This document shows positions 31,074 through 39,416 of a DNA stretch of 47,449 nucleotides, one piece after another. Source of the stretch: a virus (taxonomy: Duplodnaviria > Heunggongvirae > Uroviricota > Caudoviricetes); the IMG/VR virus record IMGVR_UViG_2585427767_000006. One strand, 5' to 3'. How positions within the stretch are numbered: the first letter of the stretch is position 1; each line of letters opens with the position of its first letter. The notes below the pieces were generated by a model, which was not told the origin of the DNA, made no database searches, and saw nothing but the letters and a program-made list of their open reading frames with translations. The translations under genes and the position numbers were made by a program.

Positions 31074-31150
31074 TGGCGCGCTGTACTGGATTCGAACCAG
31101 TGACCGATTGCTTAGAAGGCAATTGCTCTGTCCGGCTGAGCTAACAACGC
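31074..31150 (-). tRNA. tRNA-Arg (anticodon UCU)
   Basis: Minus-strand 77-nt sequence GCGTTGTTAGCTCAGCCGGACAGAGCAATTGCCTTCTAAGCAATCGGTCACTGGTTCGAATCCAGTACAGCGCGCCA folds as a cloverleaf with anticodon loop CUUCUAA and T-loop TTCGAAT. Confidence 0.9.
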
Positions 31151-31250: not shown

Positions 31251-31326
31251 TGGTGGCCCTTGCTGGATTTGAACCAGCGACCTGGCGATTATGAGTCGCT
31301 CGCTCTCACCACTGAGCTAAAGGGCC
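31251..31326 (-). tRNA. tRNA-Ile2 (anticodon CAU, ileX/ileZ-like; could alternatively be Met)
   Basis: Minus-strand 76-nt sequence GGCCCTTTAGCTCAGTGGTGAGAGCGAGCGACTCATAATCGCCAGGTCGCTGGTTCAAATCCAGCAAGGGCCACCA; 7-bp acceptor stem, anticodon CAU, very close to E. coli ileX. Confidence 0.85.
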
Positions 31327-32674: not shown

Positions 32675-33721
32675 TTACCCAAGCACGCCAGTTGCAAAGG
32701 CGTGATCAAGAAAACGAAAAATTAAATCAACCTGAGAACCATGCTTTTCTTCGAACGCCAGAGGATCCGCATGAAGCTCGTTGTGATGCTCCCGACACAG
32801 CGGTAGCGTGAAAATATCGTGAGATTTTGTCCCCATTCCGCCCTGACCATGACCAATCAGGTGATGGGGATCGTCGGCTGGCTTACCACAACACGCACAC
32901 GGCTGTGTCTTCACCCAGCGTGTGTATTTCTCGTTAACCCAGCGGCGACGTTTAGGTCGTTTCATGAAAGATTCCGGAGACTCAGGATCAACGGCAATGC
33001 TGACCACCGTCTCTTCCTGTGGCGGGGTTTGCTGGTGGGCGGGAGGCAGCGGCGCAAGATTTTTTGTGCGCTGCTTCAGTATGCTGGTGGCGGTCTGCTC
33101 TCCCGGTACGATGTCGCTTTCACGGTACATTGAGCGGATTTTTTCCGCACGCAACCCCAGCGAACGACGTAATACCGCTTCCGGTAGCGCGTCCGCCACC
33201 TGATTGCGGACCGCCCACCAGGATAATTCAGCCAGCGATAATTCCCGTTCCTGCGAGCCATTCATTGCATGGAGTATGACGTCAATCATCCATGCAGACA
33301 GGTTTTGGTGAGCAAGTTGCCCGAGTGATTCGGAGGTCTGGTCGCGCAGCTGGTTGTCGCAGTGCCAGCACAACACCATTGCGCCGGTACCATAACGGTG
33401 AATGACGGTTTCACTGTGGTGATAATCGCCGTGTGGCCACTGGCAGGATTTAACATGGCGCAGTAACCAGTCAGACAATGCGCCAGCGCCACCAGCAGCA
33501 CGAATCACTCGTTCGTCGCTGAAAAATAGCAGTAATGATTTATCCTCCGCCAGCGGCTGGCGAACGGCAGGAACGACCCCGGACGACAGATTACGCATGC
33601 TTTTCGGTTCCGGCTCCACCAGTACCCGGGTATTGTGGAATACCGGCATGGATTCACGGCCCGGCTTAACGATCACCAGCCCGAGTTCCGGTACCAGAAC
33701 AGGTCGAAGTAATACCCGCAC
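32675..33721 (-). CDS. DUF968-family protein with C-terminal HNH-like motif (YdfU-like)
   Basis: 348-aa protein; C-terminus CACCGKPADDPHHLIGHGQGGMGTKSHDIFTLPLCREHHNELH is a Cys/His HNH-like motif. Confidence 0.7.
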   Translation of the reverse strand: MRVLLRPVLVPELGLVIVKPGRESMPVFHNTRVLVEPEPKSMRNLSSGVVPAVRQPLAEDKSLLLFFSDERVIRAAGGAGALSDWLLRHVKSCQWPHGDYHHSETVIHRYGTGAMVLCWHCDNQLRDQTSESLGQLAHQNLSAWMIDVILHAMNGSQERELSLAELSWWAVRNQVADALPEAVLRRSLGLRAEKIRSMYRESDIVPGEQTATSILKQRTKNLAPLPPAHQQTPPQEETVVSIAVDPESPESFMKRPKRRRWVNEKYTRWVKTQPCACCGKPADDPHHLIGHGQGGMGTKSHDIFTLPLCREHHNELHADPLAFEEKHGSQVDLIFRFLDHAFATGVLG

Positions 33722-33722
33722 G

Positions 33723-34001
33723 TTACCTCCAGATGCGTTGCTGGAATGTGCGGGACGGACGCGGTGGGCGTTCGGAATAAGGGAGTCTGACGTAGATTAT
33801 CCAGTGACGATAATCGAGGCTGAGGGCTTTCTTAATCTCGTATCCGTGTCTGCGGTAGCACTGAATTAGCCACTCGGCCTGTTCTTCAGTGCATGGGGGA
33901 TGCTGGAACCAGTCAGATTTGAAAGTGCGGGAACGCCGCCCGTGCCTGCTGGCAAAGACGGCAGAATCATCAGAATTGTGTAATTTGGTATCGTGCGCCA
34001 T
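33723..34001 (-). CDS. Hypothetical protein (92 aa from ATG 34001)
   Basis: ORF abutting the DUF968 gene; weak SD; function unknown. Confidence 0.35.
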   Translation of the reverse strand: MAHDTKLHNSDDSAVFASRHGRRSRTFKSDWFQHPPCTEEQAEWLIQCYRRHGYEIKKALSLDYRHWIIYVRLPYSERPPRPSRTFQQRIWR

Positions 34002-34116
34002 CGGTTGTCTCTGCTGGCGCAGCAGGTGCCAGTTGTTCAGGCTGGCGTGCGAATTGTAAACCAGAATGCCAGGAAAAAACAAAACCCGCCGAAGCGGGTT
34101 TTTTGTACATATAGAA

Positions 34117-35214
34117 TTATGGTATTAATCCAGCTGTTCTTGCTTTATTAATATAATTTTTACAGTGGTTAGCCAAATACTCTGCAAACTTGCATGGAAG
34201 TGCATTTCCTATTATGACGCATACTTTATCCATCAAAGCTGTATCAAACACATAGTTATCAGGAAAAGTCTGTAGTCTAGCAGCTTCTCGAACAGAAATA
34301 GTACGCGTATCCTCAGGATGTCCATATCGCCCACGGCTTAAAGTTGTGCACCCACCTGTAATCGTTGGCGATACGTCATCCCAAAGCATACGACCATAAA
34401 CATTACTAAATCCTTTATAGTCGCCTTTATGGCAATCTGGACGGAGTTCTTCGGGAATACACTCCCAAGACATCCCTGGAACAGCCGCTTGTAACCGCTT
34501 TATATTGATCTCAGACAAATCCCTAACAATATGCCAACTCGACAATGGAAACTTCCCTTGCTTCTTAGCCTGTGAAAGAGTTAAGGGTTTTGGCATATCT
34601 CCAATAGCTTCTTTAACAGTTACCCATTTGGGTTTCTCTCTTCCATCCTTAGAGTGTGATCCATCAGGCAATGGGATGGCAAATCCTTTTCCTGCCAACA
34701 GAACAAGCCTTTTTCTGAACTGTGGTACACCAAAGTCAGCTACTTGCAAAACTCCATAATTAACTATGTAACCAAGTTTTTTCAATCTCTCAATTACTGG
34801 CGAAAGAAGATGATTTCCCCGGGAAGCTAATCCAGGAACATTTTCCATCATGATTGCTGATGGATTGGTTTCTTCAACCAACCGTAACATCTCGTTAATC
34901 AATAAATTACGAGGGTCCTCCCTTTTATACTTGGCAGTGAGACTAGTAAATCCTTGACATGGCGGGCACGCAGATAAAAGATCTAAATGTTGCTCAGGGA
35001 TAAGATTTAGGATATCACTCCCCTTTACAAACCGAATATCTTGAACAAAGAGTTTTGTCTCACGATGATTTGCTTGGAAAGTAGCGGCGGCATGTGCGTC
35101 CAGTTCAACGGCAGCTTTGACATCAAACCCGGCCATTTTTAGTCCCATGGTTAGTCCCCCACCACCGCTAAATAGGTCAACTGCATTCAAACTGGTCACT
35201 GTTTTCTCACTCAT
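34117..35214 (-). CDS. DNA cytosine-5 methyltransferase (Dcm-type)
   Basis: Motif I DLFSGGGG, catalytic motif IV PCQGF, motif VI ENV, motif VIII QFRKR; ATG overlaps the upstream gene's stop by 8 nt. Confidence 0.9.
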   Translation of the reverse strand: MSEKTVTSLNAVDLFSGGGGLTMGLKMAGFDVKAAVELDAHAAATFQANHRETKLFVQDIRFVKGSDILNLIPEQHLDLLSACPPCQGFTSLTAKYKREDPRNLLINEMLRLVEETNPSAIMMENVPGLASRGNHLLSPVIERLKKLGYIVNYGVLQVADFGVPQFRKRLVLLAGKGFAIPLPDGSHSKDGREKPKWVTVKEAIGDMPKPLTLSQAKKQGKFPLSSWHIVRDLSEINIKRLQAAVPGMSWECIPEELRPDCHKGDYKGFSNVYGRMLWDDVSPTITGGCTTLSRGRYGHPEDTRTISVREAARLQTFPDNYVFDTALMDKVCVIIGNALPCKFAEYLANHCKNYINKARTAGLIP

Positions 35215-37318
35215 TATTTCCCAACTTCAACTGTTCTGCCTCATCCAAGAATTCTTGGTGAGTTTGAGTTGTCCTCAGCAAGAACCCTGCCCAATCAACG
35301 GGTGTTAGGCGTTTTTCTTCGATGTATGCAGTATAAGCTTTACGACGTGCCCCACTCAAGCGCTCCCCATCACTTACCAGCGTAACGTGAAAATCAGATG
35401 CTATTGATTTAAAATCATTATGTCTCTCATCGTTCAAAAACTCCTCGAATGTTTCGAAGTAATTAATAATACGATCCATTTCATCATTGGAAATATAATG
35501 ATGTGGCTTTTTTATTTCAATTATTTGTAATTTTCCATCCTGACTAAACAATACAAAGTCTGGTCTTTTATTTTTTTTATCAAAATCTATAAGAAATATC
35601 TCCTCACCAGTTTTCTTTTTATAAAATTTTTGAAATTCCCTTTTAAGCGTGGACAACGTTTTATTTGCTGTAACTGGGACCCATTGAGGGTTAACTAGCC
35701 ACGGAGCGGATGCAATTAGATCTTGTAACTCATCTTCTGCTGTATCCTTTGCGTCTTTTAAAGACTCGAGACGCTCAATAATCTGAAGACGCTTTTTGAC
35801 CTTTTGACCAAAACTAACGGTTTCAGCTAGTTGAGCCGTTGCTAAAATATCGTTGAGAACATTGAGCGGTGTATCCGCTTTACTGGAAGCTTCTATTAAC
35901 TTCTCATCTAAGGATTGTAATGGTGCTAACATAATACTTAACTGCACTAAATTCTCGAGTGCATCAGGATCATGTAATTCATCACCTCGTAAAGATTTAC
36001 CCAACAACTTGGCTATTTTTTTAGCCTGTGCTCGCATATCCTTTTGACCGGCTCCAGGGTATGCTTGCTCGACCTTATCCTCCACTTGCGCTAATTCGAA
36101 GAATTGATTCATCATATTATTTCTAAGGGGGTCGCGAGTTATTTTACCCACAAGTAAAATAACTTCTTGCCCCCAATTCTGAAATTGCGTTCCTAAATCA
36201 TCAGACCATAGAATATCCCTTCTATCAGTTTGGATAAGATCTTCTTTTTCGTCTAACCAGTCAGCATGCAACTCACCTACCAAATATGAACGTATAGAGT
36301 GCTCTCCAGTAAAACCAGCTTTTCTATTAAAAACTGCTGTTTGCGCAGCAAACTTACCTCGGCAATAAATTCTAACACCTGCCATTAACTCGTCCTTATA
36401 AGGCTCTTTCGCGTATGCAATCCAACCTAATATCGGGTAAGCTTTCCCTTCATGTTCAAAACCGGCCTTAACAATTGATGAACGCGTGCCGTCAGGATTA
36501 AAAGCCGTATAATCACTTAAATCCGTACAAGAATCTGTCGCAATACTTCCACTCATGGAACGAAATTCAATTTTAGAGTTAGGCATAACAGGAACAGTAA
36601 ACTCTCCGACCTCAACTTCATAGTCAGGATTAGACTTTGTTTTCGAAGTATCAATCAGTTTAATATTCCAGTTTTTACTCTTCACTCCAAAACGTTGTGA
36701 AAGCTGCCGAGATAAATCTTTTATTTCGCTAATTTTTCTATATTCAAAATCACTTAATATTATTTTAGTATAGGTCCTGTCACTTAGTGTGCCGTCTAAA
36801 TCCCCAGTTTCCGGTTTATAAGACACTGCAGTATCATCCATTATTTTTTCTTTATCTAGCTGAATATGAGCAACCTCATACCCTTCCTTTCCATCACGAC
36901 TGATTTTTTCCCCACCGGCACTTATAATCTCGACCCTTTTACAAACACCAAAAGGTGCTAATTTCCCAACGCCTTTCCGTCCCATGACTTTGCGGTGAAA
37001 CACCTTCGAGGTTTCACCTCTTTTTGGATCCTTACGTCTTTCTTTGCCAACAACCAAATAAAAGTTCTGTAGTTCATCAGGCGCCATTCCGACGCCATTA
37101 TCTTCTACTTCTATTGTGACATTTTTTGACCTGACAACACCATCCTGTCTAACAGCCAAGTATTGGCCCATAGGTGCTTTTATAGTGACATTAGTCGCAT
37201 CTGCATCGTAACTGTTAGATACTAATTCGGCTATAACAGCATAAGCCCTGTCATATAATTTCACACCTAATTTATCTACTGTCATCCTTGATATCTGCAT
37301 TTCATATTGACGCGCCAT
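35207..37318 (-). CDS. GHKL (MORC/MutL-like) ATPase fused to a C-terminal PD-(D/E)xK-type nuclease domain; putative restriction/defence nuclease
   Basis: N-box ELVSNSYDADA, G1 DNGVGM, G2 GRKGVGKLAPFG in the first 130 aa; C-terminal IDFD...PDFVLF...IIEIKK nuclease-like signature; SD AAGGA upstream. Confidence 0.7.
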   Translation of the reverse strand: MARQYEMQISRMTVDKLGVKLYDRAYAVIAELVSNSYDADATNVTIKAPMGQYLAVRQDGVVRSKNVTIEVEDNGVGMAPDELQNFYLVVGKERRKDPKRGETSKVFHRKVMGRKGVGKLAPFGVCKRVEIISAGGEKISRDGKEGYEVAHIQLDKEKIMDDTAVSYKPETGDLDGTLSDRTYTKIILSDFEYRKISEIKDLSRQLSQRFGVKSKNWNIKLIDTSKTKSNPDYEVEVGEFTVPVMPNSKIEFRSMSGSIATDSCTDLSDYTAFNPDGTRSSIVKAGFEHEGKAYPILGWIAYAKEPYKDELMAGVRIYCRGKFAAQTAVFNRKAGFTGEHSIRSYLVGELHADWLDEKEDLIQTDRRDILWSDDLGTQFQNWGQEVILLVGKITRDPLRNNMMNQFFELAQVEDKVEQAYPGAGQKDMRAQAKKIAKLLGKSLRGDELHDPDALENLVQLSIMLAPLQSLDEKLIEASSKADTPLNVLNDILATAQLAETVSFGQKVKKRLQIIERLESLKDAKDTAEDELQDLIASAPWLVNPQWVPVTANKTLSTLKREFQKFYKKKTGEEIFLIDFDKKNKRPDFVLFSQDGKLQIIEIKKPHHYISNDEMDRIINYFETFEEFLNDERHNDFKSIASDFHVTLVSDGERLSGARRKAYTAYIEEKRLTPVDWAGFLLRTTQTHQEFLDEAEQLKLGNNE

Positions 37319-37894
37319 TTAAATATCCTTCTAAAAGAGTATTTTTTGCTCAAAAAGGGGAAGTTTATGTTTGACTAACATAGCAAAAAAACTTTCATCT
37401 TCAAGAGGTTCACACCAAAAGAATTTACCTGGTTCACATAACCAGCTGGATTAGTGTTGAGTTTTGGGTAAACCTGAGGATTGAGAAACCAGTACTGATA
37501 AATGGGTATCCGCTGTTTTCGTCCCTCTCCTGAGCTACCGTGTATTGAAATGGCATCGACACTATTACATGGTAGGAGGTTGTATGTATGGTTTAGATAT
37601 TTTGCATCTTTCACAGACACTTTTTACCTTTGCCATATCCTTCCACATTGTTTCTCCGGAAATCACTAACGGTTTGGCATTTGCATAACCATTATCAGCC
37701 ATAGCTTCTTGCCGTTAACTTCGGTTGCACCTGATTGTTGCTCACCTTCAGGCAATGATGGGTTATATACACGGACTGAGCTCACTGCAGTAACAACCTT
37801 CCCAGTCAACTTACCTATGCTTTCAACCATCATCGTAGCGGCATACTTCCGAATTGCTATTATTTCAATTCTGCACCGTTTGCTCAATGTAACG

Positions 37895-38305
37895 CTACCT
37901 AAAACGTCGCCGATAGAACGCCAGCACGCGCTGCATAACTTCGCTCTTCCGGCACTCGCTACAGATTATGTTCTGACGCCTGTCATAACGACGTATTTCT
38001 CCATCAGGTAATGACCAGATAAGGTCCGGATCAACCGCAGATGGTTTCTTCAGCTTTGCCCTTGAGAGCTTTTTACGGGCATTTTGCCAGTCCTTACGCG
38101 CCTGTTCAGGCGGGAATAACCCGTAACCAGAGTTGTATACATCGCCACTGGCAACCAGCTCTCTGGCCAGAACGCTCATCAGATATCTTGTTGCCCCAGT
38201 TCTAGCTTCCAGTTGTCGTAACGTCTCGCGCCCACTCTGGCGTACGAGTTCAAGAACCTGCCCTTTAATTTTTTCCCGCTCTTCTTGTGTAAAAACTTTT
38301 GCCAC
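37895..38305 (-). CDS. Hypothetical protein (136 aa) downstream of the replication initiator
   Basis: GTG start with strong SD AGGAGGG 5 nt upstream; basic C-terminus with CSEC pair; function unknown. Confidence 0.5.
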   Translation of the reverse strand: MAKVFTQEEREKIKGQVLELVRQSGRETLRQLEARTGATRYLMSVLARELVASGDVYNSGYGLFPPEQARKDWQNARKKLSRAKLKKPSAVDPDLIWSLPDGEIRRYDRRQNIICSECRKSEVMQRVLAFYRRRFR

Positions 38306-38345
38306 AAGCCCTCCTGAAAATTACCTCATGACCAGAAATACACAC

Positions 38346-39416
38346 TTACCCCCTGAAGCCCGGTGGAATTTCGGTATCCGGTTCAGAAATATGATTCACA
38401 CAACGCTGGTTGTTCGTGCCGCTTACCGGGAGCAACCAGGGGTTCTCAAAATTCCGGTCCGGTCCAAAAAACGTCGTCGCTCGCTGAACAAATTCCGTTC
38501 CCGTTTTCCCGGTAGCCGCCAGGTATCTTGCGTAACGCCTCACGCCATCCAGCATGGCCTCTGGTGGCACCCCCTCGCGTAATCTGGCCTTCCAGGCACT
38601 GAAAGCGGATTTCTTCGGGTTTGCTCCGGCACGCAACGGGTACTCCCGCCAGACCTGTTCGAACACATCCGGATAATCCACTCGTCCCACAGACTGCCCG
38701 GTGTTTTCCGGGACTACCCGATCGGCTTCCCGCTGAATGGCGGAATCGGCTTCGGGCTGCTGCAGTTGGTGTGATTGCTCCGGCCTTGCGGTCATCACCT
38801 GCTGCACAGCGCCCGAATCGGCTTTCAGCGCATACGCTGAATCGGCTTCCGGTGTCGTGCCTGCTGGCTGACCAAGATTGACGGTCTGAACATCCCCTGC
38901 CTGGTTCGTGGCGTTTTTTACGCCATGGACCATAGTGTTTTGATCTTCTTGATCTGTATCTTTATCTGTATCTTTATCTGTCGTGACTCGTCGTGACATG
39001 TGCGTGACATTTCGTGACGCGCCGTGACAATCGCCATTTTGTTCCCGCTTTCTTTCCCTCTCTCGCTGCGCCCTCTTGCGCTCTGCAGGAGATTTTGCGG
39101 TTTGCGAAATATTGCCGTTGTCCTCTTTAAGCACCTGGCGTTTTTCCCATCCAGTGATTAAATCACCATCAAGTCCCCGCCCCTGCATCGTCTGCAAAAT
39201 TGAATCAATTACCTCTTCTGTCACGTCGAGCGCACTTGCCAAATCTTCTGTCGTGACATCAATGTGACCTCGCGTGACATTTCGTGACGCGCTCACCAGG
39301 AGGTGGATATACACTGCCATCACTGTTGCAATTGGCTGCCCTGACACCCTGGCAATTGTTCGCCACTTAGGGTCATTTGGCATGTCATGCCATAATCTGA
39401 GCCAGGCGTTAGCCAT
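38346..39416 (-). CDS. Replication initiation protein (O-like) with internal origin iterons
   Basis: Position after cro/YdaT-like genes; two clusters of phased CGTGAC repeats inside the ORF; start at ATG 39416 with SD GAGGTGA (ORF-track GTG at 39422). Confidence 0.6.
   Translation of the reverse strand: MANAWLRLWHDMPNDPKWRTIARVSGQPIATVMAVYIHLLVSASRNVTRGHIDVTTEDLASALDVTEEVIDSILQTMQGRGLDGDLITGWEKRQVLKEDNGNISQTAKSPAERKRAQRERERKREQNGDCHGASRNVTHMSRRVTTDKDTDKDTDQEDQNTMVHGVKNATNQAGDVQTVNLGQPAGTTPEADSAYALKADSGAVQQVMTARPEQSHQLQQPEADSAIQREADRVVPENTGQSVGRVDYPDVFEQVWREYPLRAGANPKKSAFSAWKARLREGVPPEAMLDGVRRYARYLAATGKTGTEFVQRATTFFGPDRNFENPWLLPVSGTNNQRCVNHISEPDTEIPPGFRG
38982..39288. repeat. Putative replication origin: two iteron clusters (CGTGAC repeats with ~10.5-bp phasing)
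   Basis: CGTGAC at 38982, 38992, 39003, 39013, 39023 and (C/T)GTGAC at 39252, 39263, 39273, 39283; the 19-mer CGTGACATTTCGTGACGCG occurs in both clusters; AT-rich tandem repeat TCTGTATCTTTA x2 adjacent. Confidence 0.6.

What the first reader, a model, noticed from the sequence alone, without database searches (positions are those of the whole stretch)
34117..37318. GHKL-ATPase/PD-(D/E)xK nuclease gene translationally coupled to a C5-cytosine methyltransferase in the nin region: candidate prophage-borne R-M-like defence module
The 703-aa ORF (35207..37318, minus) carries GHKL/MORC-type ATPase motifs (ELVSNSYDADA, DNGVGM, GRKGVGKLAPFG) and a C-terminal PD-(D/E)xK-like signature (IDFD...PDFVLF...IIEIKK). 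Its TGA stop overlaps by 8 nt the ATG of a Dcm-type C5-MTase (DLFSGGGG, PCQGF, ENV, QFRKR), so the order is nuclease then methylase in one operon. The pair sits between the replication genes and rusA/Q. GHKL-nuclease plus MTase pairs have been predicted computationally as restriction-like systems but, as far as I know, this architecture is not experimentally characterised; in a prophage it would act as host defence or superinfection exclusion.
Basis: partly seen in the sequence, partly recalled or inferred. Interest (0 to 1): 0.85.

Follow-up and report, generated by a model that had tools for sequence, protein, structure and literature searches.

The report
Prophage-borne GHKL-nuclease restriction-modification cassette
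An E. coli prophage carries a two-gene restriction-modification cassette, a DNA-cutting enzyme with an ATPase head plus a cytosine methylase, that is a distant relative of the known HgiDII/BbrUII restriction enzymes and so is a new member of a known kind, not a new kind of defence.

Summary
A 703-aa ORF (35207..37318, minus) and a 365-aa C5-cytosine methyltransferase (34117..35214, minus) overlap by 8 nt, and all quoted motifs are present.

The 703-aa protein has four parts:
- an N-terminal GHKL ATPase;
- a transducer domain;
- a helical linker;
- a C-terminal PD-(D/E)xK nuclease of the Shedu/DUF4263 type, with E561, D587, E601 and K603 conserved.

- The protein is homologous over its full length to NCBIfam's "BbrUII/HgiDII family restriction enzyme" (E 3e-70). 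It scores below the equivalog cut-off and is 25% identical to a bona fide member.
- It has the paraMORC3 architecture described in 2008.
- It shares that architecture with VcSduA, a tested Vibrio defence nuclease.

In 73 of 78 informative loci from many phyla, an orthologous methylase sits immediately downstream. R and M co-diverge (r = 0.86).

The cassette has a conserved upstream region and a terminator, and its GC content is low. It occupies a variable prophage cargo site, and close relatives sit in other prophages and in an ICE.

The most likely function is a Type II-like restriction-modification system of unknown specificity. Novelty: new member of a known kind. Interest is modest.

The parts
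35207..37318 (-). R gene: 703-aa GHKL-ATPase / PD-(D/E)xK nuclease. It is a paraMORC3-type, HgiDII-like restriction endonuclease candidate, annotated in RefSeq only as 'ATP-binding protein' WP_021548141.1.
36644..37318 (-). Residues about 1-225: GHKL (Bergerat-fold) ATPase. E31, N35, D38, D73, G75, G77, G113, K115, G116, G118, K119 and T184 are invariant.
   Evidence: Pfam HATPase_c_3 at residues 28-140; invariant columns; model; Foldseek hits to SMCHD1, Hsp90, MORC2/3, GyrB and MutL
36203..36643 (-). Residues about 226-372: beta-rich middle (transducer, S5-like) domain, including the invariant R320-G321-K322.
   Evidence: secondary structure of the model; Foldseek alignments of 430-515 columns that span the GHKL plus middle domains of Hsp90, MORC, GyrB and MutL
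35684..36202 (-). Residues about 373-545: long helical linker or arm.
   Evidence: model helices 373-409, 423-441, 451-479 and 485-521
35210..35683 (-). Residues about 546-703: PD-(D/E)xK nuclease domain of the Shedu (SduA_C/DUF4263) type. Catalytic candidates are E561 (35636-35638), D587 (35558-35560), E601 (35516-35518) and K603 (35510-35512).
34117..35214 (-). M gene: 365-aa C5-cytosine DNA methyltransferase (WP_024190764.1).
   Evidence: PF00145 E 6e-58; TIGR00675 154 bits; PADLOC MTase_II 9e-91
35207..35214 (-). 8-nt overlap of the R stop codon (TGA) with the M start codon (ATG), ATGAGTGA.
   Evidence: overlap or a gap of at most 8 nt in nearly all orthologous loci
34081..34102 (-). Intrinsic-terminator-like hairpin AAAACCCGCTTCGGCGGGTTTT plus a T run, 15 nt after the M stop codon. 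It marks the downstream edge of the cassette.
   Evidence: conserved in the Citrobacter and Serratia copies
37319..37430 (-). Conserved upstream leader of the cassette. It holds a candidate extended -10 promoter (TTGAAG 37404-37399, 16-nt spacer, TGC-TATGTT 37385-37377) and a Shine-Dalgarno sequence, AGAAGGA.
   Evidence: alignment with the Serratia and Citrobacter copies, where similarity starts about 110 nt upstream of the ATG. It was read by eye and falls below the promoter scan's threshold, so it is a candidate only.

Best explanation
This is a self-contained Type II-like restriction-modification cassette (promoter, R, M, terminator) carried as a moron in a variable cargo site of a lambdoid E. 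coli prophage.

M is a C5-cytosine methyltransferase. It marks a specific target sequence, still unknown and probably a short palindrome, on the chromosome and the prophage.

R is a distant homologue of the restriction enzymes R.HgiDII and R.BbrUII, and it has the paraMORC3 architecture. A GHKL ATPase head and transducer domain probably dimerise on ATP, as in MutL, Hsp90 and MORC. A helical arm connects them to a FokI/Shedu-like PD-(D/E)xK domain with a single active site. Dimerisation would bring two nuclease domains together on unmethylated target DNA to cut both strands.

In the lysogen the pair would restrict incoming unmethylated phage and plasmid DNA. Like other Type II systems, it could also stabilise the prophage by post-segregational killing.

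Shown here: domain composition, conserved catalytic residues, homology to the restriction-enzyme family, obligate R-M linkage, co-divergence, and mobility as a cassette.

Inferred: methylation-sensitive cleavage, ATP gating, dimerisation and the defence phenotype.
For: 1. Homology to named restriction enzymes.
- NCBIfam NF050001 'BbrUII/HgiDII family restriction enzyme' matches residues 5-697 at E 3.2e-70.
- A bona fide member of that family (Haloplanus plasmid, 794 bits) aligns with the window protein over residues 7-629 at E 9e-37. Its D...D-x-K aligns with D587...E601-x-K603.
- PADLOC's REase_II and MTase_II models hit both proteins.

2. Both enzymatic centres are intact and invariant across 55 homologues of 52-91% identity. 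This covers GHKL motifs I-IV and E561/D587/E601/K603.

3. Fold evidence.
- The N-terminal roughly 450 residues match the GHKL plus middle domains of SMCHD1, Hsp90, MORC2/3, GyrB and MutL.
- Its best Foldseek hit is the Shedu nuclease.
- PF14082 SduA_C is found in 41 of 55 members.

4. Linkage.
- In 73 of 78 informative loci from Proteobacteria, Nitrospirota, Acidobacteriota, Cyanobacteria, Planctomycetota, Chloroflexota, Bacillota and Patescibacteria, an orthologous m5C methylase (48-68% identity) lies directly downstream on the same strand.
- The stop-to-start distance is -23 to +8 nt in nearly all of them.
- R and M pairwise identities correlate at r = 0.86, with 0 of 999 Mantel permutations reaching that value.
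- All distant relatives inspected also have an adjacent m5C methylase, in varying orientation.

5. Cassette behaviour.
- GC is 0.33-0.45 against 0.50-0.58 in the flanks.
- The upstream leader and the terminator are conserved.
- The same pair occurs in Citrobacter lambdoid prophages, a Pantoea ICE and a Serratia prophage end.
- It is present and intact in 21 of 5426 complete E. coli genomes.

6. Published precedent.
- R.HgiDII is described as a GHKL-containing Type II enzyme (PMC2441816).
- M.HgiDII is an m5C methylase for GTCGAC (PMC5867850).
- The B. breve UCC2003 systems restrict transformation (bioRxiv 10.1101/2023.09.16.557782).
- VcSduA needs both its ATPase glutamate and its nuclease lysine to defend (PMC12137116).
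Against: - No cleavage, methylation or defence data exist for this protein or its clade.
- It scores 237 bits against the 550-bit equivalog cut-off and is 25% identical to a true HgiDII-family member. Function and specificity therefore cannot simply be transferred.
- The window protein alone does not reach Pfam's threshold for any nuclease family. Its hits are HSDR_N_2 at E 4e-4 and PADLOC SduA at 1.7e-5.
- R lies before M with translational coupling, which is an awkward order for safe establishment in a new host. No controller protein was found.
- VcSduA shows that this architecture can defend without a methylase, so methylation sensitivity is not a given.
- Three of 78 loci (L002, L016, L047) lack the orthologous methylase and have only a distant one nearby.
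Confidence: 0.78

Rival explanations
1. R is a Shedu-type (VcSduA-like) immune nuclease. On this reading it is triggered by something other than an unmethylated site, for example free DNA ends, phage replication intermediates or another infection cue sensed by the GHKL clamp. The methylase would serve only as a general self-protection or have a separate epigenetic or anti-restriction role.
For: - The C-terminal domain is of the SduA_C type.
- VcSduA has the same architecture, works as a single gene and needs its ATPase (PMC12137116).
- Gu et al. place GHKL-Shedu proteins in Shedu type I-D (bioRxiv 10.1101/2023.08.10.552793).
- Iyer et al. noted stand-alone paraMORC3 genes (PMC2292703).
Against: - Linkage with an orthologous m5C methylase is near-obligate and the two genes co-diverge.
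- A methylase is present next to every distant relative examined.
- The full-length homology is to enzymes named as site-specific restriction enzymes.
Confidence: 0.1
2. The pair serves the phage rather than the lysogen. M would protect phage DNA from the restriction systems of new hosts. R would degrade unmethylated host or competitor DNA during lytic growth.
For: - The cassette lies in the early-to-late (nin-type) region and is co-oriented with the early genes.
- Phage-borne m5C methylases are often read as anti-restriction.
- Relatives occur in P2-like phages.
Against: - The same orthologous pair is overwhelmingly chromosomal and is found in many non-phage contexts across phyla, and in an ICE.
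- It carries its own conserved leader and terminator, like a moron expressed from the prophage.
- A host chromosome already methylated by M would not be a substrate.
Confidence: 0.05
3. The main selective role is addiction, not defence. Loss of the prophage would dilute M faster than R, so that cured cells are killed and the element is stabilised.
For: - This is general behaviour of Type II restriction-modification systems (established knowledge).
- The cassette sits on mobile elements in every enterobacterial case seen.
- 19 of 21 E. coli copies are identical, which suggests recent spread with the element.
Against: - This role is not exclusive of defence.
- Nothing here measures stability.
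- The same prophage site holds many unrelated cargo genes, so the cassette is not needed to maintain the prophage.
Confidence: 0.05

Closest known systems
HgiDII / BbrUII Type II restriction-modification systems (NCBIfam NF050001; target GTCGAC, m5C methylase)
   Same: - Full-length homology of R: GHKL head, middle domain, helical region and a nuclease core with an aligned D...(D/E)xK.
- A partner C5-cytosine methylase that is 35% identical, including the target-recognition region.
- A two-gene unit with overlapping reading frames.
   Different: - R is only 25% identical and scores 237 bits against a cut-off of 550.
- The gene order is R then M, not M then R.
- The recognition sequence is unknown and need not be GTCGAC.
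paraMORC3 family (Iyer, Abhiman and Aravind 2008, PMC2292703)
   Same: GHKL ATPase with intact motifs, an S5-like middle domain, and a C-terminal restriction-endonuclease-fold domain with an E-D-ExK motif. The family is sporadically distributed and associated with DNA cytosine methylases in restriction-modification operons.
   Different: paraMORC3 is a computational family definition with no assigned mechanism. It includes stand-alone members, whereas this clade is tightly bound to a methylase.
VcSduA, the GHKL-type Shedu of Vibrio cholerae (PMC12137116); Shedu type I-D (bioRxiv 10.1101/2023.08.10.552793)
   Same: An N-terminal GHKL ATPase and a C-terminal DUF4263 PD-(D/E)xK nuclease. The residues mutated in VcSduA (E27, K557) are motif equivalents of E31 and K603 here. 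It is carried on a mobile island and defends against phages.
   Different: VcSduA is a single-gene system without a methylase. Sequence relatedness to it could not be measured here. Self/non-self discrimination in this cassette is most likely by methylation.
P2-like phage cargo 'ParaMORC3' plus Dcm (Escherichia phage PhiR44_1, Yersinia phage P37)
   Same: A temperate-phage-borne GHKL-nuclease next to an m5C methylase.
   Different: These are 23-26% identical, have a different gene orientation (convergent, or M then R), and sit in a different phage family and cargo site.

Membership tests
BbrUII/HgiDII family restriction enzyme (NCBIfam NF050001, equivalog) | Whole-protein score at or above the curated cut-off of 550 bits | tested here: not met
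   237.4 bits, E 3.2e-70. A Haloplanus plasmid protein scores 793.8 and so is a true member.
BbrUII/HgiDII family restriction enzyme (NCBIfam NF050001, equivalog) | End-to-end homology, including the nuclease core | tested here: met
   Model positions 1-648 of 659 are matched by residues 5-697. BLASTP against a true member gives E 9e-37 with the D/ExK motif aligned.
BbrUII/HgiDII family restriction enzyme (NCBIfam NF050001, equivalog) | Cleavage at GTCGAC (SalI isoschizomer) | not testable with these tools
   No biochemical or methylome data are available. GTCGAC is only the seventh most depleted palindrome near carrier genes.
paraMORC3 (Iyer et al. 2008) | GHKL domain with conserved ATP-binding motifs | tested here: met
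   HATPase_c_3 at E 7e-19. E31, N35, D73, G75, G77, G113-K119 and T184 are invariant.
paraMORC3 (Iyer et al. 2008) | S5-type middle (transducer) domain after the GHKL domain | tested here: inconclusive
   Foldseek alignments of 430-515 columns cover the GHKL plus middle domains of Hsp90, MORC2/3, GyrB and MutL. However, the TM-scores are low (0.25-0.5) and no domain-specific test was run.
paraMORC3 (Iyer et al. 2008) | C-terminal restriction-endonuclease-fold domain with E-D-ExK | tested here: met
Shedu (SduA) | DUF4263 / SduA_C nuclease domain | tested here: met
   PF14082 is found in 41 of 55 family members, with a best E of 6e-6. PADLOC SduA hits the window protein at 1.7e-5. The top Foldseek hit is 8ti9, the Shedu nuclease. 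The window protein alone is below Pfam's threshold.
Shedu (SduA) | Single-gene system with no cognate modification enzyme | tested here: not met
   An orthologous m5C methylase lies immediately downstream in 73 of 78 loci.
Type II restriction-modification system | Adjacent endonuclease and methyltransferase genes with intact catalytic motifs | tested here: met
Type II restriction-modification system | Site-specific cleavage that is blocked by the cognate methylation | not testable with these tools
   This needs a methylome and cleavage assays.
Druantia (the methylase matches the DruM model) | DruE helicase and partner genes next to DruM | tested here: not met
   The methylase hits DruM2|DruM at 1.7e-87, but the neighbours are DUF968, a hypothetical protein and DUF977.

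The most novel reading that the evidence does not exclude
Restriction by this R-then-M clade may not be simple Mg-only Type IIP cutting. It may strictly depend on an ATP-driven GHKL dimer clamp that licenses a Shedu-type nuclease on unmethylated DNA. That would be an ATP-gated class of Type II restriction, mechanistically bridging classical restriction-modification systems and Shedu immune nucleases. It might also have a new specificity; CTCGAG is the weak lead. The E. coli prophage copy would be a tractable model for settling what the GHKL module does, a question raised in 2008 and, as far as the searches here show, still not answered biochemically.
Probability: 0.35. Interest if true: 0.55.

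Novelty: new member of a known kind. Interest (0 to 1): 0.3.

Why it matters
GHKL-nuclease restriction enzymes (HgiDII-like, paraMORC3) have been catalogued since 2008. In the literature searched here, nobody has shown what their ATPase does.

This clade is large: 217 clusters at 50% identity score E<=1e-30. It is tightly coupled to its methylase, and it is under-annotated. RefSeq calls the nuclease only 'ATP-binding protein', and PHROGs lists its family as 'unknown function'.

An intact copy in an E. coli lambdoid prophage offers an easy genetic system in which to:
- determine the specificity;
- test ATP dependence;
- relate restriction-modification systems to Shedu-type defence.

It also adds one more defence cargo to a variable prophage site. 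It does not reveal a new principle.

Tried and rejected
- **Solved structures.** A sequence search against the PDB with the protein and with the family profile found only GHKL heads (Hsp90, TRAP1, MutL). No solved relative of the whole enzyme turned up.
- **Promoters.** The sigma-70 scan found 10 sites against 8.5 +/- 2.7 expected, so it gives no statistical support. This includes the 10/12 site inside R (35520-35492) that could drive M separately.
- **RNA families.** The Rfam scan of 33500-38500 gave only sub-threshold hits around the terminator.
- **Specificity from palindrome avoidance in 71 carrier loci.** CTCGAG is the most depleted 6-bp palindrome (O/E 0.44) and GTCGAC ranks seventh (0.62). 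All 6-bp palindromes are depleted, though, and there is no non-carrier control, so this is a lead and not a result.
- **Controller protein.** The two small ORFs upstream (37375-37620 and 37666-37887) have no Pfam family and lie outside the region conserved between species.
- **Druantia and classical MORC/helicase systems.** Both were rejected because no partner genes are present.
- **Primary BbrII paper.** O'Connell Motherway 2009 was not held.
- **Accession numbers in the literature.** A search for both accession numbers found nothing.
- **VcSduA.** Its sequence could not be obtained, so no direct comparison was possible.
Full report
**1. Observation**

The ORF list and the minus-strand sequence show a 703-aa ORF at 35207..37318 and a 365-aa ORF at 34117..35214. 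The upstream TGA (35209-35207) and the downstream ATG (35214-35212) lie in the string ATGAGTGA, so the overlap is 8 nt.

The matches are far beyond chance:
- Pfam gives HATPase_c_3 at E 7e-19 for residues 28-140.
- Pfam gives DNA_methylase at E 6e-58 across the whole second protein.

In the window the pair lies between DUF968, RusA and antiterminator Q on one side and DUF977 and YdaT on the other. The 358-aa gene in the replication-gene position has no family match, so that label rests on position only.

**2. What the large protein is**

NCBIfam's best hit is NF050001, 'BbrUII/HgiDII family restriction enzyme'. It covers residues 5-697 at E 3.2e-70, but with 237 bits against an equivalog cut-off of 550. 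PADLOC's REase_II and MTase_II models hit the two proteins, and its SduA (DUF4263) model weakly hits residues 507-607.

A Haloplanus plasmid protein scores 794 bits on NF050001 and is therefore a true member of that family. It aligns with the window protein over residues 7-629 at 25% identity and E 9e-37. In that alignment RPDFVLF...IIEIKKP lies opposite RLDLKHI...IIDLKRP. The nuclease motif is therefore shared with the HgiDII family, whose C-terminal domain was still 'unassigned' in 2008 (PMC2441816).

Across 55 homologues of 52-91% identity, these positions are invariant or nearly so:
- the GHKL motifs: E31, N35, D38, D73, G75, G77, G113-K119 and T184;
- the nuclease residues E561, D587, E601 and K603.

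**3. Structure**

An AlphaFold2 model of the whole protein has a mean pLDDT of 75.6. It shows a GHKL head, a beta-rich middle domain, long helices from 373 to 540, and a C-terminal alpha/beta domain. Foldseek aligns 430-515 columns of the N-terminal part with SMCHD1, Hsp90/TRAP1, MORC2, MORC3, GyrB, MLH1 and MutL.

A separate model of residues 525-703 has a pLDDT of 79.5. Its fold matches are:
- The Foldseek top hit is the Bacillus cereus Shedu nuclease domain (8ti9, E 2.8e-3), followed by FokI.

Pfam SduA_C (PF14082) is detected in 41 of the 55 family members. The scores are moderate but all point the same way: the C-terminus is a Shedu/FokI-like PD-(D/E)xK nuclease. No solved structure of the whole enzyme type was found by sequence.

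**4. Linkage with the methylase**

A scan of one genome per species returned 80 loci from very different phyla. Two of these are cut off by contig ends. Of the 78 informative loci, 73 have an m5C methylase 48-68% identical to the window's directly downstream on the same strand. Three have only a distant methylase nearby.

- The distance from the R stop to the nearest in-frame M start is between -23 and +8 nt in nearly all loci. Overlap or abutment is therefore a conserved feature.
- Pairwise identities of R and of M across 72 distinct pairs correlate at r = 0.86, and none of 999 Mantel permutations reaches that value.
- The methylase's variable region (residues 181-300) is about as conserved as its catalytic core, which suggests one specificity for the whole clade.

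More distant relatives (22-26% identity) also sit beside an m5C methylase, in every possible orientation:

| Relative | Orientation |
|---|---|
| Haloplanus plasmid | M then R |
| Pantoea agglomerans plasmid | M then R |
| Burkholderia glumae plasmid | M then R |
| Yersinia phage P37 | M then R |
| Streptococcus agalactiae plasmid | R then M |
| Pseudomonas aeruginosa pY89 | convergent |
| Escherichia phage PhiR44_1 (nuclease annotated 'ParaMORC3', next to 'Dcm') | convergent |

The window's methylase is 35% identical to the HgiDII-type methylase and 40% identical to the Pantoea one. The similarity runs through the target-recognition region.

**5. The cassette and its carrier**

- The two genes have a GC content of 0.33-0.45, against 0.50-0.58 in the flanks.
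- A strong terminator-like hairpin follows M at 34102-34081.
- Alignment with the Serratia (91%), Citrobacter (87%) and Pantoea (78%) copies shows that similarity starts about 110 nt upstream of the R start. This leader contains TTGAAG, a 16-nt spacer and TGC-TATGTT, and the similarity ends at the terminator. The promoter was read by eye and is only a candidate.
- The Citrobacter copies lie in the nin-type region of a different lambdoid prophage. The Pantoea copy lies in an ICE, and the Serratia copy lies beside a phage integrase.
- In E. coli the flanks (window 33500-34100 and 37912-38400) are shared by thousands of prophages. These carry other cargo at the same site, including QueH, HokD, DUF7167, DUF5677 and an alpha/beta hydrolase.
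- The R-M pair is present and intact in 21 of 5426 complete genomes, and 19 of those copies are identical.
- The exact R protein occurs on 774 contigs and is named only 'ATP-binding protein'. PHROGs lists its family as of unknown function.
- The superfamily has 217 clusters at 50% identity with E<=1e-30, and 1083 with E<=1e-10.

**6. Mechanism**

The best-supported reading is a Type II-like restriction-modification system. M methylates C5 of a cytosine in a defined site, and R cuts DNA that lacks the mark.

By analogy with MutL, Hsp90 and MORC (established knowledge; also argued in PMC2292703 and PMC12137116), the GHKL head probably dimerises on ATP. That would bring two single-site nuclease domains together.

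The homology, the conserved residues, the linkage and the mobility are shown here. Methylation sensitivity, ATP gating and the defence phenotype are inferred.

The rival readings are less likely, mainly because of the near-obligate, co-diverging methylase:
- a Shedu-like nuclease with a trigger other than unmethylated sites;
- a function that benefits the phage during lytic growth;
- pure addiction.

**7. Comparison with what is known**

- R.HgiDII was described as a Type II enzyme with an N-terminal GHKL domain (PMC2441816).
- M.HgiDII is an m5C enzyme for GTCGAC (PMC5867850).
- The B. breve UCC2003 systems restrict transformation (bioRxiv 10.1101/2023.09.16.557782).
- Iyer et al. defined paraMORC3 as GHKL plus S5 plus an E-D-ExK nuclease, found in restriction-modification operons or standing alone (PMC2292703).
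- VcSduA, with the same architecture, defends E. coli against T1-like phages, and its E27A and K557A mutants are dead (PMC12137116).
- Gu et al. place GHKL-Shedu proteins in type I-D (bioRxiv 10.1101/2023.08.10.552793).

The window's system fails the NF050001 equivalog cut-off and has the opposite gene order. It is therefore a separate subfamily of unknown specificity, not a member of the HgiDII family proper. It fits the paraMORC3 definition. It is not a Shedu system in the single-gene sense.

Searches found no paper that dissects the ATPase's role in a methylase-linked enzyme of this type.

**8. Verdict**

This is a new, under-annotated member of a known kind of restriction-modification system, riding as cargo in a prophage. 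Its value lies in being a convenient E. coli model for an unanswered mechanistic question, so interest is modest (0.3).

Noticed in passing
loci L003-L081 (71 carrier loci, 780 kb); window CTCGAG sites inside R at about 35957 and 35765: CTCGAG (the XhoI site) is the most depleted 6-bp palindrome around carrier genes. Its O/E is 0.44 (z -10.5), and it falls below expectation in 61 of 66 loci with enough sites. It ranks in the top five in all three GC classes. GTCGAC, the HgiDII site, has O/E 0.62 and ranks seventh. Both share the central TCGA. There is no non-carrier control, so this is only a lead to the specificity.
   Followed up: partly
window 34101-37911, between DUF968 (32675-33721) and DUF977 (37895-38305): This is a variable cargo site of a large family of E. 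coli lambdoid prophages. Other prophages hold QueH, HokD, DUF7167, DUF5677, Rem or an alpha/beta hydrolase between the same flanks.
   Followed up: partly
window 37431-37894: About 460 bp between the conserved cassette leader and DUF977 is AT-rich, unannotated in RefSeq and not shared with the Serratia or Citrobacter copies. Its two ORFs (81 aa at 37375-37620 and 73 aa at 37666-37887, both minus strand) have no Pfam family.
   Followed up: partly
window 35520-35492 (minus strand), inside the 3' part of R: This is the best promoter-like match in the region (TTGAAA, 17-nt spacer, TATATT; 10 of 12), about 280 nt upstream of the methylase start. It could let M be made without R, but the number of promoter-like sites is no higher than in shuffled sequence.
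   Followed up: no
window 31074-31150 and 31251-31326 (minus strand): Two tRNA genes (Arg-tct and a CAT-anticodon tRNA) lie just downstream of the Q antiterminator. Strain WP4-W18-ESBL-09, which has an identical R-M cassette, has three tRNAs and an extra DNA methyltransferase gene in this region. The window's prophage is therefore a mosaic variant of that one.
   Followed up: partly
L083 (Pantoea agglomerans plasmid pPagL15_1), 1968-4986: A third subfamily (304 bits on NF050001, M then R, overlapping) sits in a prophage-like stretch with DUF1367, Ref, DUF1133, YlcI/YnfO and HicA. GHKL-nuclease/Dcm pairs therefore recur as cargo near the late-gene regulators of lambdoid elements.
   Followed up: partly
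cluster of the window methylase: Some E. coli assemblies carry split or truncated copies of the methylase, for example 90 aa plus 262 aa in one 4.98-Mb genome.
   Followed up: no
literature: Two papers disagree on M.BbrUII. PMC5867850 calls it an m5C homologue of M.HgiDII, while PMC5829577 says M.BbrUII is the N6-adenine enzyme of B. breve UCC2003. The primary paper was not available to settle this.
   Followed up: no
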